A stretch of 64,000 nucleotides of DNA. Source: Octopus vulgaris. Taxonomy: Eukaryota. A model generated the notes under the pieces. It was not told where the DNA came from. It saw only the letters and a program-made list of their open reading frames with translations, and made no database searches. Of the stretch, positions 16,049 through 63,548 are shown in pieces. Numbering within the stretch: position 1 is the first letter of the stretch; each line of letters begins with the position of its first letter. The translations under genes were made by a program, and so were the position numbers. The DNA lies in assembly GCA_951406725.2 (NCBI GenBank), contig OX597828.1, positions 14,632,001-14,696,000 of the forward strand, given 5' to 3'.

Positions 16049-16220
16049 ATATTAGGGAATAAATCCAAATTTACAGGGAAAAAAATCAGATTTAGGATTA
16101 AATCCAATTTTATAGTAAAATATTATATAATATTAATTAGAGACAAAACCACTATTTTGCAAAACAAACAAGGAAAGACTTAATCAATACATAAAATTTT
16201 AATAAAAAGTAAAAAAACCG

Positions 16221-16263
16221 CCACTACAATTGTTTCATGTCTTGATCGACAATCTTCAGGTGG
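16221..16263 (-). ncRNA. Minimal hammerhead ribozyme
   Basis: Minus strand CCAC-CTGAAGA-tTGTC(gatcaa)GACAt-GAAAC-AATT-GTA-GTGG. Confidence 0.8.
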
Positions 16264-16400
16264 ATTTCCGATTTTCAAGTCAGTTTCAATTTATATATAT
16301 ATATATATAATATTAATTAGAGACAAAACCACTATTTTGCAAAACAAACAAGGAAAGACTTAATCAATACATAAAATTTTAATAAAAAGTAAAAAAAACG

Positions 16401-16443
16401 CCACTACAATTGTTTCATGTCTTGATCGACAATCTTCAGGTGG
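16401..16443 (-). ncRNA. Minimal hammerhead ribozyme (tandem copy)
   Basis: Identical to 16221-16263, 180 bp away. Confidence 0.8.
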
Positions 16444-16512
16444 ATTTCCGATTTTCAAGTCAGTTTCAAATTATGAAGTGCATAATTTGAAACTGACTTG
16501 AAAATCGGAAAT

Positions 16513-22270: not shown

Positions 22271-22460
22271 GGGGTGTAGCGAGCTTAAGGGGGCTCTGAT
22301 TAGAGGTAGTACCTTTGGTGTCTTGAAGCTGCACCTTGCCAGGGACCGTCGTGTTGACGGGCATCACTGACCCTCATTCACCTCCTAATCTCTCACTTGA
22401 TGGCTCTTAAGGCCATACTCCGGCACCCCACTTCAACTGGTGGGCTAAACCAAGTGAGAG
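22271..22460 (+). ncRNA. HDV-like self-cleaving ribozyme
   Basis: P1 GGGGTGT(22271)/ATACTCC(22415); P2 CTCTCACTTG(22390)/CAAGTGAGAG(22451); P3 GGC/GCC; L3 TCTTAAG; P1.1 GG(22422); P4 CCCAC/GTGGG; J4/2 CTAA with C at 22445. Confidence 0.8.
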
Positions 22461-22817
22461 GATGGTCTTAACACTGCACTCGTAGGCGAACGACTCCGGG
22501 GTTCCAAAGTGTCCCCAGCTAGGGCGGAGGAACCTGCTCAGGTCAACGGACAAGTATTCGTGGCCAAGGCGTGTTTCAAGTAGCTGCATACGGTTGTGGT
22601 TAACAGTTTAGAGAGGAATGGGCGACGCCAGACTAACCTGCCCATGATACATTCATGATCATGACAATCAGACCAGAATCCATAATTGATCGGTCGTTGC
22701 CCGGATTGCCGATTCACAGAATGCAACAGAAGACCTAGGAAGAGGGCGAAATTCGGTTGCGACGACATCAACGAATATCCCAACGACCACACGGTCAAGG
22801 GATGGGAGGAGGAAGAA

Positions 22818-22820
<3 letters not shown>
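22271..22820 (+). mobile_element. Short internally deleted RTE-type element between (TG)n tracts
   Basis: HDV-like ribozyme at the 5' end. The 3' end CCCAACGACCACACGGTCAAGGGAT plus GAA-rich tail resembles the RTE terminus (PQRP.R.RD). No RT in between. Confidence 0.7.
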
Positions 22821-32782: not shown

Positions 32783-33112
32783 TCTGCTAATCTGCTGTCG
32801 TCTGCTAATCTGCTGTCGTTTGCTAATCTGCTGTCGTCTGCCAATCTGCTGTCGTCTGCTAATCTGCTGTCGTCTGCCAATCTACTGTTGTCTGCTAATC
32901 TGCTGTCGTCTGCTAATCTGCTGTCGTCTGCTAATCTGCTGACATCTGCTAATCTGCTGTCGTCTGCCAATCTGCTGTCGTCTGCTAATCTGCTGTCGTC
33001 TGCTAATCTGCTGTCGTCTGCTAATCTGCTGTCGTCTGCTAATCTGCTGTCGTCTGCTAATCTGCTGTCGTCTGCTAATCTGCTGTCGTCTGTCAATCTG
33101 CTGTCGTCTGCT
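32783..33112. repeat. 18-bp minisatellite (TCTGCTAATCTGCTGTCG), about 18 units
   Basis: Direct inspection; explains the ADDSRL and SANLLS pseudo-ORFs. Confidence 0.95.
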
Positions 33113-41026: not shown

Positions 41027-41410
41027 TAGGGTTAGGTTTAGGGTTAGGGTTAGGGGTTAGGGGTTAGGGTTAGGGTTAGGGTTAGGGTTATAGTTAGGGT
41101 TAGGGTTTAGGGTTAGGGTATAGGGTTTAGGGTTAGGGTTAGGGTTAGAGGGTTAGGGTTAGGGTTAGGGTTAGGGTTAGGGATTAGGGTTGAATGTTTA
41201 GGGTTAGGGTTAGGGGTTAGGGTTAGGGTTAGTGTTAGGGTTAGGGGTAAGGGTTAGGTTTAGGGTTTGGGTTAGTGTTAGGGTTTAGGGTTTGGGTTAG
41301 TGTTAGGGTTTAGGGTTTTTGTTAGGGATAGGGTTCGGGTTAGAGGTTAGGGTTAGTGTTAGGGTTGTTAGGGTTAGGGTTAGGTTTAGGGTTAGGATTA
41401 GGGCTAGGGT

Positions 41411-41447
<37 letters not shown>

Positions 41448-41627
41448 GTTAGGGTTAGGTTTGTGTTAGGGTTGTTGTGTTAGGGTTAGGGTTAGATTTA
41501 GGGGTTAGGGTTTTTGTTAGAGTTAGTGGTTAGGGTTAGGTTTAGGGTTTGGGTTAGTGTTAGGGTTTAGGGTTTTTGTTATGGTTAGGGTTCGGGTTAG
41601 AGGTTATGGTTAGTGTTAGGGTTAGGT

Positions 41628-41662
<35 letters not shown>

Positions 41663-41993
41663 GGTTAGGGTATAGGGTTTAGGGTTAGGGTTAGGGTTAG
41701 GGTTAGAGGGTTAGGTTAGGGTTAGGGTTAGGGTTAGGTTAGGGTTAGGGTTAGGGTTAGGGATTTAGGGTTGAAGGGTCTAGGGTTTAGGGTTAGGGTT
41801 AGGGTTAGGGGTTAGGGTTAGGTTTAGTGTTAGGTTTGTATTAGGGTTAGGTTTAGGGTTAGGGTTAGGGTTAGGGGTTAGGGTTAGGGTTAGTGTTAGG
41901 GTTAGGTTTAGGGTTTGGGTTAGTGTTAGGGTTTAGGGTTTTTGTTAGGGTTAGGGTTCGGGTTAGAGGTTATGGTTAGTGTTAGGGTTAGGG

Positions 41994-42031
<38 letters not shown>

Positions 42032-42354
42032 ATAGGGTTTAGGGTTAGGGTTAGGGTTAGGGTTAGAGGGTTAGGTTAGGGTTAGAGGGTTAGGGTTAGG
42101 GTAAGGGTTAGAGTTAGAGTTAGGGATTAGGGTTGAATGTCTAGGGTTTAGGGTTAGGGTTAGGGTTAGGGGTTAGGGTTAGGTTTAGTGTTAGGTTTGT
42201 ATTAGGGTTAGGTTTAGGGTTAGGGTTAGGGTTAGGGGTTAGGGTTAGGGTTAGTGTTAGGGTTAGGTTTAGGGTTTGGGTTAGTGTTAGGGTTTAGGGT
42301 TTTTGTTAGGGTTAGGGTTCGAGTTAGAGGTTAGGGTTAGTGTTAGGGTTAGGG

Positions 42355-42395
<41 letters not shown>

Positions 42396-42594
42396 GGTTA
42401 GGGTTAGGGTTAGGTTTTAGAGTTAGGGTTAGGGTTAGGGTTAGGGGTTAGGGTTAGGTTTAGTGTTAGGGTTGTGTTAGGGTTAGGGGTTAGGGTTAGG
42501 TTTAGGGTTTAGGTTAGTGTTAGGGTTTAGGGTTTTTGTTAGGTTTAGGGTTCGAGTTAGAGGTTAGGGTTAGTGTTAGGGTTAGGGTTAGGGT
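41027..42594 (+). repeat. Interstitial telomeric array (TTAGGG)n with variant units
   Basis: About 1.57 kb of TTAGGG interspersed with TTAGTG, TTTAGGG, TTCGGG and TTAGAGG; unique DNA on both sides. Confidence 0.97.
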
Positions 42595-44960: not shown

Positions 44961-45084
44961 AGGGGATTTGGTAGACGGAAACTGAAAGAAGCCCGTCGAA
45001 TATATATATGTATATATATATATATATATATGTGTGTGACTGTGTGTGTGTGTGTGTGTATATCAACATGTAGAACTGTTAATC

Positions 45085-45139
45085 CCGACTGACGAAGGGA
45101 GGGCTGTTATAAGCTAACCCTGAAATCGGTCCGATATGG
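45085..45139 (+). ncRNA. Hammerhead motif in (TA)n-embedded island 45063-45383
   Basis: CTGACGA-AGGG...CCCT-GAAA-TCG(gtc)CGA-TA-TGG; stem I is imperfect. Confidence 0.6.
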
Positions 45140-45381
45140 TAATAATGGAATTTTTTAGAAATTTCTGTCCACCTTTTTTCGAGTAGCGTGCGTATTGTGA
45201 AAAAATTATATGGTTAATGGACAATATGTCCAATTTTTCGGCATATTTGGCATTAGAAATTTTTTCGTTTGCCCTTATCTATGAATTGTTTATAAATTTT
45301 ACCTTTAAAGGTATTTTTTAATATGCTGGCCATTGATAAAATGTTTTTTGGAAAAGAAATTTTTCGAAAAATGTTTTATCC

Positions 45382-48134: not shown

Positions 48135-48718
48135 TTTCTACTCCAGGCACAAGGCCCGAAATTTTGGGGCAGGGGGGCCAGTCGATTAGATCGACCCCAG
48201 TATGCAACTGGTACTTAATTTATCGACCCCCCCAAAAGGATGAAAGGCAAAGTCGACCTCGACGGAATTTGAACTCAGAACGTAAAGACAAACATACCTA
48301 TTTCTATACTACCCACAAGGGGTTAAACACAGAGGGGACAAACAAGGACAGACAAACGGATTAAGTCGATTATATCGACCCCAGTGTGTAACTGGTACTT
48401 ATTTAATCGACCCCCAAAAGGATGAAAGGCAAAGTCGACCTCGACGGAATTTGAACTCAGAACGAAAAGACAAACATACCTATTTCTATACTACCCACAA
48501 GGGGTTAAACACAGAGGGGACAAACAAGGACAAGGACAGACAAACGGATTAAGTCTATTATATCAACCCCAGTGCGTAACTGGTACTTATTTAATCGACG
48601 CCGAAAAGATGAAAGGCAAAGTCGACCTCAGCGGAATTTGAACTCAGAACGTAGCGGCAGACGAAATACTGCTAAGCATTTCGCCAGGCGTGCTAACGTT
48701 TCTGCCAGCTCGCCGCCT
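48135..48718 (-). mobile_element. SINE family A with triplicated ~180-bp internal unit and TSD GAAGCATTAATGT
   Basis: Core at ~48240, ~48420 and ~48610, with a single head. Confidence 0.9.
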
Positions 48719-61682: not shown

Positions 61683-62396
61683 TATTTCCCGAAGGGGGCA
61701 CATTGTGACGACGTAAAAGAAAAGCAACCAATATTTATGTCACTGCAGTAGACGTATCATTTCTGACAAGGTTACAGTGTCCTTTGTGTTATTTATTTTC
61801 AATATTATGGCAATGTTCACGACTTGGTGAAACAGTTGAGACTGCTCACTTGCAATGTTTTTTCTTCATATTCTGGCAAAAAAACCCACATTGTTTTGAC
61901 ATTTTAAACCTCCAATGCAACGAAGAAAAATTATATAATTTTTTTACCAGAAATATGACACAAACGATGCTAAAAAAACTAATCTTTGGCAATATGACAG
62001 TATGCTAATAATAACTGAACAGAATGTTTTTATTCATGTTTTACAAGATGTACCTAATTCGTTTTGAAGACAGGAAACTCATGATATCCTGAGGCATCAA
62101 CCCATGATATCCTGAAGCATCTTATAACAATAATAGGAGTTAGTGCACTCATCCATTCTCACACAGCATTTGCTAACATTGAACATTTTTATGCAGGTTT
62201 TCTAAGATGTACTTAAACCATTTCTTTGTGTAAGAAAGAGAATTGTTCATATATTTTTTCAAACTCTTTTACTCTTTTACTTGTTTCAGTCATTTGACTG
62301 CGGCCATGCAGTCAAATCGACCCCAGGACTTATTCTTTGGAAGCCTAGTACTTATTCTAGTACTTATCACAGGCATACAAACACACACACATATAC

Positions 62397-63548
62397 TACG
62401 CCAACTCTGTAATGGGATACTTAGAAGAACAACTCTACCAAGAGGTGGAGGTAAACTATGGCACTGGATTTAGAAAGTATATTGAAAGGGCATGGAAGAG
62501 ATACCTAGACGACTGTTTCATAATCTGGACAGAATCTCTAAATACTCTGGAAGAGTTCAATATCCTCCTGAACAACCTACACCCATCTCTCAAATTTACA
62601 AAGGAGATGAGTAGTACCAAATTACCATTCCTGGATATAATGGTAATTAAAAAAGACACCACCATCACCACAGATATATACTATAAACACACAGACACAC
62701 ATCAATACCTAAATTTTAAGTCGTGCCATCCACCACATACAAAACGTAACATCCCATACTGCCTAGCCAGAAGAATTTGTACTATTGTAGAAGATGCAAA
62801 TATCAGGAACAAACGCCTAATAGAACTAAGAGAATTTTTGCTCAAACAAAAATACCCATCTCTACTTATAGAAAATGGCATACAGCGGGCTATAAAAATA
62901 CCTATACAACAACTTAGGACAACCCAAGGAAGAGGAAAACAAGAACAAGTCATACCATTCATAGTGACACACAACCCATGTCACCAGAATATCTTCAACA
63001 TTGCCAAAGCAAACCTACCAATCATTGCCCAAAGTAATGAATTAAAAGACATAATCAAGGATCGAGCTATGGTGCTTAGTAAAAGACAGCCTAAAAACTT
63101 GAAAACATTACTAACAAAGGCAAAATTTGACCTCAGCAACAAAGACCAAACATTCACGGTATCTAAATGCAATGATAGCCGATGTGGCACATGCCAATTC
63201 ATACATACCGGTCAATATATAAACACAAAAACCGGGAAAATATTCACAAACGCGAATATGAACTGCAAAAGCAGAAATTTAATTTACTGCATCAAATGCC
63301 CAAATTGTGAAGAAATATATGTAGGTCAGACGGGAAACGCACTATTAGAACGCTCACGTGTACACCGGCAACAGATTAGAGACCCAGAGGTCCGTCAGAT
63401 ACCTTTGAGTAACCACCTAGCAACATGTGGTCGGAAAATATATATAATATTTCCATTCTACAAATTACACAGCCCAAGTGAAATCGAGAGGAAAATCAGA
63501 GAAAAGAATTTTATTGATAAATTCGAACCCAAGCTAAATAAGCAATAA
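62397..63548 (+). CDS. 5'-truncated Penelope-like retroelement ORF (RT C-terminal half, Zn-finger linker, GIY-YIG endonuclease), Neptune-like
   Basis: YANSVMGYLEE, WKRYLDDCF, LPFLD, YYKHTDTHQYLNFKSCHP, KCNDSRCGTC, NLIYCIKCPNCEEIYVGQT...R...H, REKNFI...LN. No stops or frameshifts over ~383 codons. The ATG at 62412 is internal. Confidence 0.93.
   Translation, partial: YANSVMGYLEEQLYQEVEVNYGTGFRKYIERAWKRYLDDCFIIWTESLNTLEEFNILLNNLHPSLKFTKEMSSTKLPFLDIMVIKKDTTITTDIYYKHTDTHQYLNFKSCHPPHTKRNIPYCLARRICTIVEDANIRNKRLIELREFLLKQKYPSLLIENGIQRAIKIPIQQLRTTQGRGKQEQVIPFIVTHNPCHQNIFNIAKANLPIIAQSNELKDIIKDRAMVLSKRQPKNLKTLLTKAKFDLSNKDQTFTVSKCNDSRCGTCQFIHTGQYINTKTGKIFTNANMNCKSRNLIYCIKCPNCEEIYVGQTGNALLERSRVHRQQIRDPEVRQIPLSNHLATCGRKIYIIFPFYKLHSPSEIERKIREKNFIDKFEPKLNKQ

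What the first reader, a model, noticed from the sequence alone, without database searches (positions are those of the whole stretch)
22271..22820. HDV-like ribozyme heading a ~545-bp internally deleted RTE element
Seen: a complete nested double pseudoknot in canonical order (7-bp P1, 3-bp P3, 7-nt L3, GG for P1.1, P4, J4/2 CUAA, 10-bp P2) with a ~110-nt J1/2. The predicted cleavage site G22271 coincides with the element's 5' boundary next to the (TG)n flank, and the 3' end resembles an RTE terminus. Established: R2, RTE and L1Tc LINEs use 5' HDV-like ribozymes, and R2 gives rise to SIDEs. Inference: a promoterless ribozyme-headed non-autonomous retroelement that cuts itself out of host transcripts. 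This is a second ribozyme class in the window.
Basis: partly seen in the sequence, partly recalled or inferred. Interest (0 to 1): 0.8.

Follow-up and report, generated by a model that had tools for sequence, protein, structure and literature searches.

The report
Decayed ribozyme-headed short RTE retroelement
This is one old, mutated copy of a short jumping-gene family whose copies begin exactly at the predicted cut site of a self-cleaving RNA fold and end like a longer retrotransposon in the same genome; the design is already known from other animals, and this copy is likely a poor or dead cutter.

Summary
The fold is real. All five HDV-like helices and C22445 lie where stated; a descriptor hits only this site in the window and 0 of 5,000 element shuffles. 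The element belongs to a dispersed family of at least 57 distinct copies, 74-85% identical to column majority. Homology starts exactly at ribozyme G1, and target-site duplications abut G1 (8 of 19 copies vs 4% of cross-pairs). The 3' end matches 5'-truncated reverse-transcriptase-coding LINE copies in the same genome. No full-length partner carrying the 5' part was found, so that link is inferred. The window copy has a shorter junction shared by about five others. It keeps all 25 helix pairs but has lost the L3 guanine (G25 equivalent) and gained a competing P1, so it probably cleaves poorly; the family's commonest letters are canonical. 'Promoterless' is untested, and the ribozyme would make only the 5' end. 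Ribozyme-headed bipartite non-autonomous LINEs are published (PMC5786205, PMC3414825). The scan noted twister-headed analogues in other genomes. New member of a known kind.

The parts
22271..22819 (+). Whole element: bipartite non-autonomous retroelement copy (short-junction variant)
   Evidence: profile of 5' part joins directly to 3' part
22271..22460 (+). HDV-like double-pseudoknot fold; predicted cleavage 5' of G22271
22271..22277 (+). P1 5' arm; G22271 is the family's 5' boundary
   Evidence: G in 21 of 35 other anchored copies, A/T-rich unconserved sequence upstream; TSDs abut
22278..22389 (+). J1/2, 112 nt, including a 10-nt insertion just after P1 seen only in this copy
22390..22399 (+). 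P2 5' arm (pairs 22451-22460)
22402..22414 (+). P3 and L3; L3 carries T22407 and A22410 where the family has C and G
22415..22423 (+). P1 3' arm and the GG of P1.1
22423..22429 (+). Competing alternative P1 3' arm (predicted misfold)
22427..22450 (+). P4 and J4/2 with the catalytic-C equivalent C22445
   Evidence: C in 26 of 43 other copies
22461..22708 (+). Rest of the 5' part: presumed LINE 5' UTR, ending in a short ATG-led frame from 22655 that may be the first codons of the LINE ORF (inferred, not shown)
22709..22805 (+). Last ~32 codons of the partner LINE's RT-containing ORF (decayed)
22806..22819 (+). Remnant of the (GAA/GAAG)n 3' tail

Best explanation
This is a decayed copy of an old multi-copy family of short elements that begin at an HDV-like ribozyme fold and end in the 3' end of an RT-coding LINE, most likely made by internal deletion of an RTE-type LINE and likely copied by that LINE's enzyme from RNA whose 5' end the ribozyme is predicted to have cut. 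Inferred mechanism: a master copy was transcribed by Pol II (read-through or internal promoter, not distinguished); the ribozyme cleaved before G1; the LINE protein bound the retained 3' end and inserted the RNA by target-primed reverse transcription, leaving short target-site duplications and a (GAAG)n tail. Copies then decayed neutrally. The window copy likely descends from a minor master with about 30 more bases deleted at the junction, and is probably a weak or dead ribozyme.
For: Shown: at least 57 distinct copies join the 5' and 3' parts, 49 at one junction; 30 of 30 fetched 5'-part hits (of 34 matches) carry the 3' part downstream. Homology starts at G1. The 9 nt before G1 recur after the tail at >=7 of 9 in 8 of 19 copies vs 4% of cross-copy pairs, 0 of 10,000 permutations. 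At all 27 pairs the commonest pair is a standard one; 78% of cells pair vs 32-45% for slid registers. Family L3 has U and G at the reverse-wobble positions in 33 of 43 copies each. 21 loci continue upstream of the junction into RT coding sequence instead of the 5' part; 16 of them with a full 3' end are 82% identical to the element's 3' column majority vs 78% for 30 element copies; they match RT proteins P0008/P0014 (e.g. L100, E 4e-42; Pfam RVT_1 and Exo_endo_phos). Star-like tree, median end branch 0.21. G25A strongly impairs a C. briggsae HDV-like ribozyme (PMC13635239 passages) and the same change abolished cleavage in a Nasonia R2 (PMC3774820 passage).
Against: No locus links the 5' part to an endonuclease/RT ORF: 0 of 20, 0 of 18, 0 of 30. 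No covariation above shuffles (430 of 500 reach the score); this is expected for copies decaying from one master, but it gives no independent support for the fold. No Rfam hit. tblastn of three RT proteins finds nothing in the window copy itself. The RTE label rests on recalled motifs and a single EN-RT ORF in unnamed proteins, not on a tree with named references. The short-junction group is not recovered as a clade (5 changes) and its shared rare letters are marginal (8 vs null mean 3.8, p=0.05). PMC3774820 notes that the G-to-A change does not fully eliminate cleavage in HDV itself.
Confidence: 0.82

Rival explanations
1. The element is a hybrid: the ribozyme-bearing 5' part came from a different LINE than the 3' part, as in the R2/R1 hybrid SIDEs.
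For: No full-length partner carrying the 5' part was found. Hybrid SIDEs exist (PMC3414825 abstract).
Against: Partner copies are all 5'-truncated within about 1 kb of the 3' end, so absence is expected. Simple internal deletion is the usual origin for RTE bipartite elements (PMC5786205).
Confidence: 0.08
2. The 5' end at G1 was set by an internal Pol II promoter; the fold was inherited from the parent LINE and was not needed for this family's spread.
For: L1Tc/NARTc have promoter and ribozyme in the same 77 nt (PMC3383444 listing). No covariation. The core is no better conserved than the rest (0.80 vs 0.83 and 0.80).
Against: The family's commonest letters give an intact catalytic core and insertions begin at the predicted cut site. 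The two roles are not exclusive.
Confidence: 0.06
3. The window copy has been kept by the host as a slow, functional ribozyme.
For: It is the only one of 44 copies with 25 of 25 helix pairs and the only one to pass the descriptor.
Against: L3 has three changes including the G25 equivalent. It retains 16 of 20 CpG sites, which spares CpG-containing pairs. An orthologous contig in run X1 differs at 9 sites, 1 in the 71-nt core, as expected with no constraint (1.1).
Confidence: 0.04

Closest known systems
Bipartite non-autonomous RTE LINEs (RTESINE1/2, WALLSI3, MAR4_MD, Bov-A, RTE-N1/N2_Lch; Kojima 2018, PMC5786205: passages and section 23 read)
   Same: 5' part plus extreme 3' end, no ORF, no RNA-derived head; the paper states that such elements usually keep the LINE 5' end and links this to 5' self-cleaving ribozymes.
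   Different: Longer (about 570 bp). The paper's main text and supplement do not mention octopus, and three motifs from this element were absent from its supplement. The parent's 5' end was not recovered here.
R2 SIDEs and R2/R1 hybrid SIDEs (Eickbush and Eickbush 2012, PMC3414825: abstract read)
   Same: HDV-like ribozyme at the 5' end joined to a LINE 3' end and spread by the LINE's TPRT.
   Different: R2 SIDEs are site-specific in 28S rDNA, so their co-transcript is known. This family is dispersed and its source of transcription is unknown.
NARTc, RIME and SIDER elements with Pr77/L1TcRz (PMC4035085 abstract; PMC3383444 and PMC3185411 search listing)
   Same: Dispersed short derivatives of a LINE that retain an HDV-like ribozyme at the 5' end; some copies have lost function.
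   Different: Ingi/L1Tc clade in trypanosomatids, a minimal 77-nt ribozyme with shown promoter activity; here J1/2 is about 100 nt and no promoter was tested.
HDV-like ribozymes at RTE 5' ends (Ruminski et al. 2011; not held; known only as cited in PMC5786205 and PMC3774820)
   Same: Cleavage site at the element's 5' junction.
   Different: Reported for autonomous elements; the paper itself was not seen.

Membership tests
HDV-like ribozyme | P1, P1.1, P2, P3, P4 in nested double-pseudoknot order | tested here: met
HDV-like ribozyme | Catalytic C in J4/2 followed by A at +2 | tested here: met
   C22445; C in 26 and A in 39 of 43 other copies
HDV-like ribozyme | L3 U-G reverse wobble (U20-G25): family | tested here: met
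   U in 33 and G in 33 of 43 other copies
HDV-like ribozyme | L3 U-G reverse wobble (U20-G25): window copy | tested here: not met
   A22410; strict descriptor fails
HDV-like ribozyme | Covariation supporting the helices | tested here: inconclusive
   not above shuffles in 18 copies decaying from one master
HDV-like ribozyme | Match to a curated Rfam ribozyme model | tested here: not met
HDV-like ribozyme | Mg-dependent self-cleavage 5' of G1, lost in the C-to-U mutant | not testable with these tools
   needs in vitro assay
Bipartite non-autonomous RTE LINE | 3' end shared with an autonomous-type LINE | tested here: met
Bipartite non-autonomous RTE LINE | 5' part is the same LINE's 5' end | tested here: inconclusive
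   no full-length partner in 20, 18 and 30 loci
Bipartite non-autonomous RTE LINE | Multi-copy with a shared deletion junction | tested here: met
   57 distinct joined copies, 49 at one junction; window junction shared by about 5 others
Bipartite non-autonomous RTE LINE | Target-site duplications and short-repeat tail | tested here: met
   an earlier cruder test was weak; unreadable in the window copy
Bipartite non-autonomous RTE LINE | Partner RT belongs to the RTE clade | tested here: inconclusive
   EN+RT single-ORF relatives; clade name from recalled motifs, no reference tree
SINE (small-RNA-derived head) | tRNA/5S/7SL-derived head | tested here: not met
   no tRNA, no Rfam hit, homology starts at G1

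The most novel reading that the evidence does not exclude
The window copy, alone among 44 in keeping every helix pair, has been retained as a slowed HDV-like ribozyme that cuts a host transcript, in the manner of CPEB3, with its L3 changes tuning the rate rather than killing it.
Probability: 0.04. Interest if true: 0.6.

Novelty: new member of a known kind. Interest (0 to 1): 0.27.

Why it matters
It is a clean genomic example for the idea, stated in PMC5786205, that bipartite RTE derivatives keep the LINE's 5' end because a ribozyme defines it: insertion junctions and target-site duplications fall on the predicted cut site across many copies. Two searches (octopus + RTE + ribozyme; HDV-like + ribozyme + cephalopod) listed no paper on such a family in cephalopods, but Repbase/Dfam and repeat-library files were not searchable, so it may already be catalogued. 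It does not change any mechanism and the family appears extinct.

Tried and rejected
Rfam scans: no ribozyme hit. First pattern for the partner's 3' ORF gave two short fragments with no match to the window element. Protein search with a 42-aa peptide found nothing. Searches for a full-length partner: 6 kb upstream of 20 partner-type loci, 18 RT loci and 30 endonuclease loci had no match to the 5' profile; L164, a related near-full-length LINE, has a 5' inversion that ends at the ORF start. A junction-centred DNA search found only 2 other loci of 3 candidates, neither with the short junction. First TSD tests were weak (by local alignment; mean 6.75 vs 5.8-6.75 for offsets); the tail-stripped test was the third try and used 19 copies with an intact 5' end and 3' part out of 44. 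The per-copy line was wrong (slice too short) and was redone. RNAalifold on 18 copies recovered only J1/2 helices and a P4-region hairpin, not the pseudoknot. Sequencing runs: no RNA holder listed; two presumed RNA runs gave only short pieces of other copies; no evidence either way on expression. Ruminski 2011 is not held. A Ceph-SINE relationship was considered and not supported (motif look-up and reading by eye only).

Full report
Observation. The stretch 22271-22819 lies between two (TG)n arrays. A relaxed descriptor found this one site on both strands of the window, and nothing in 5,000 shuffles of the element or 60 locally shuffled windows; it was written after seeing the site. Rfam gave no ribozyme match.

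Family. G000 is 2.8 Gb in 227 contigs; I take it to be an octopus-like animal from size and recalled repeat content (not tested). Searching with the element gave 42 matches from 40 scored of 110 candidates: the element itself and others at 68-77% identity. Thirty aligned copies are 74-85% identical to column majority and 69% pairwise. Pooling four searches, 57 distinct copies join the 5' part directly to the 3' part, 49 of them at one junction. All 30 fetched hits (of 34) to the end of the 5' part carry the 3' part downstream, two with later insertions in between. The window copy lacks about 30 further bases at the junction; L007, L020, L138, L016 and probably L136 have the same shorter junction. 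That points to a minor master, but the tree is star-like, does not group them, and shared rare letters are marginal (8 vs null mean 3.8, p=0.05). The true copy number is probably in the low hundreds (inference; searches give lower bounds).

5' end. With 35 other copies anchored on an internal motif (36 of 44 passed the anchor score), conservation begins at the G1 column (G in 21 of 35) and the sequence upstream is unconserved and A/T-rich. In 19 of 44 copies with an intact 5' end and 3' part, the 9 nt before G1 recur just after the tail at 7 of 9 or better in 8 copies, against 4% of cross-copy pairs; none of 10,000 permutations reached the observed mean. Two earlier, cruder tests were weak. 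Insertions therefore begin at the predicted cleavage site. There is no tRNA head.

Ribozyme state. In 18 aligned copies the commonest pair is standard at all 27 positions, 78% of cells pair against 32-45% for slid registers, and covariation does not exceed shuffles (the window row's own P1 5' arm is offset in that alignment by its insertion). Among 43 other copies L3 has U (33) and G (33) at the reverse-wobble positions and C, C (29, 34) for P1.1; the catalytic C is in 26. So the master most likely had a canonical core. The window copy is the only one of 44 with all 25 pairs of P1-P4 and the only one to pass the descriptor, but it has T22407 and A22410 in L3, and an alternative P1 arm at 22423-29 that binds more strongly (-12.1 vs -6.9 kcal/mol). 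G25A left no observable cleavage after 60 s in a C. briggsae HDV-like ribozyme (PMC13635239, passages); the same change abolished cleavage in a Nasonia R2 but not fully in HDV (PMC3774820, passage). None of the 44 copies keeps all catalytic features. The window copy's intact pairing needs no selection: the pooled chance of keeping the 18 pairs of P2-P4 is 0.013 per copy, it retains 16 of 20 CpG sites, the core is no more conserved than the rest of the family, and an orthologous contig in run X1 has 9 substitutions with 1 in the core and none in L3.

Partner LINE. Of 30 loci fetched with the 3' 135 nt, 24 were joined copies, 2 were 5'-truncated copies and 4 continued into RT coding sequence. 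A search with that coding stretch gave 22 loci, 18 with the 3' end and none with the 5' part. Twenty-one such loci switch from LINE-specific to shared sequence at the element's main junction, and 16 with a full 3' end are 82% identical to the element's 3' column majority, against 78% for element copies: same family, similar age. They match RT proteins from public sets (P0008, P0014; Pfam RVT_1 and Exo_endo_phos). The longest reach about 0.9 kb upstream. No locus joined the 5' part to a LINE ORF (0 of 20; 0 of 18; 0 of 30). The name RTE rests on recalled C-terminal and RT motifs, the single EN-RT ORF of the relatives and the short-repeat tail; no reference tree was built.

Mechanism. Shown: bipartite structure, shared junction, 5' boundary at G1, TSDs, tail, partner 3' ends, neutral-looking decay. 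Inferred: internal deletion of one RTE-type LINE, Pol II transcription, cleavage before G1, TPRT by the partner's protein. Untested: promoter, host read-through, cleavage itself. The ribozyme would define only the 5' end.

Comparison. PMC5786205 (passages, section 23 and a supplement look-up) lists RTE, Ingi, Vingi and R2 as the clades that yield bipartite non-autonomous LINEs, names several RTE examples, and relates their intact 5' ends to self-cleaving ribozymes. PMC3414825 (abstract) describes ribozyme-headed R2 SIDEs; PMC4035085 (abstract) shows HDV-like ribozymes across trypanosomatid L1Tc/ingi-clade elements. Searches listed no paper on this family or on HDV-like ribozymes in cephalopod retroelements; a 2026 octopus repeat annotation does not contain the word ribozyme in its main text (PMC13282606, passages; supplements not seen and may hold the family). 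The scan's index had no look-alike sequence and two twister-headed RTE analogues in other genomes.

Verdict. Observation confirmed; interpretation partly supported; new member of a known kind; interest 0.27.

Noticed in passing
family copies L001-L143: CpG retention is strongly uneven: 21 of 44 copies keep 3 or fewer of about 20 sites, 20 keep 5-16, at similar non-CpG divergence. This fits insertion inside versus outside methylated gene bodies (octopus methylation pattern, PMC9476566 passages); the window copy keeps the most, 16 of 20.
   Followed up: partly
window 45083-45140 (+): Hammerhead-like core (CUGACGA ... GAAA with a stem II) found by a pattern scan; below Rfam gathering.
   Followed up: partly
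window 62361-63548 (+): 395-aa open frame with a GIY-YIG match (E 9e-6); looks like the C-terminal part of a Penelope-like element ORF (recalled).
   Followed up: partly
window 41027-42594: About 1.57 kb array of telomere-type hexamer repeats in the interior of a long contig.
   Followed up: no
L164:2411-5137: Related near-full-length LINE whose endonuclease segment is inverted relative to the rest, as expected from twin priming.
   Followed up: partly
L182, L186, L187 about 300-400 nt upstream of the endonuclease match: Another LINE family in this genome whose copies share a 5' start and a GC-rich 5' UTR with a motif resembling this element's P4/J4/2 end; my descriptor did not hit it.
   Followed up: no
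L026:1501-2203 and L045: Copies followed by an inverted partial duplicate of themselves.
   Followed up: no
L065 and L066 (contig C20): Two near-identical copies, likely a segmental duplication rather than recent transposition.
   Followed up: no
window 32783-33112, 16120-16474, 48180-48651: An 18-bp x 18 tandem array and two about 180-bp tandem duplications.
   Followed up: no
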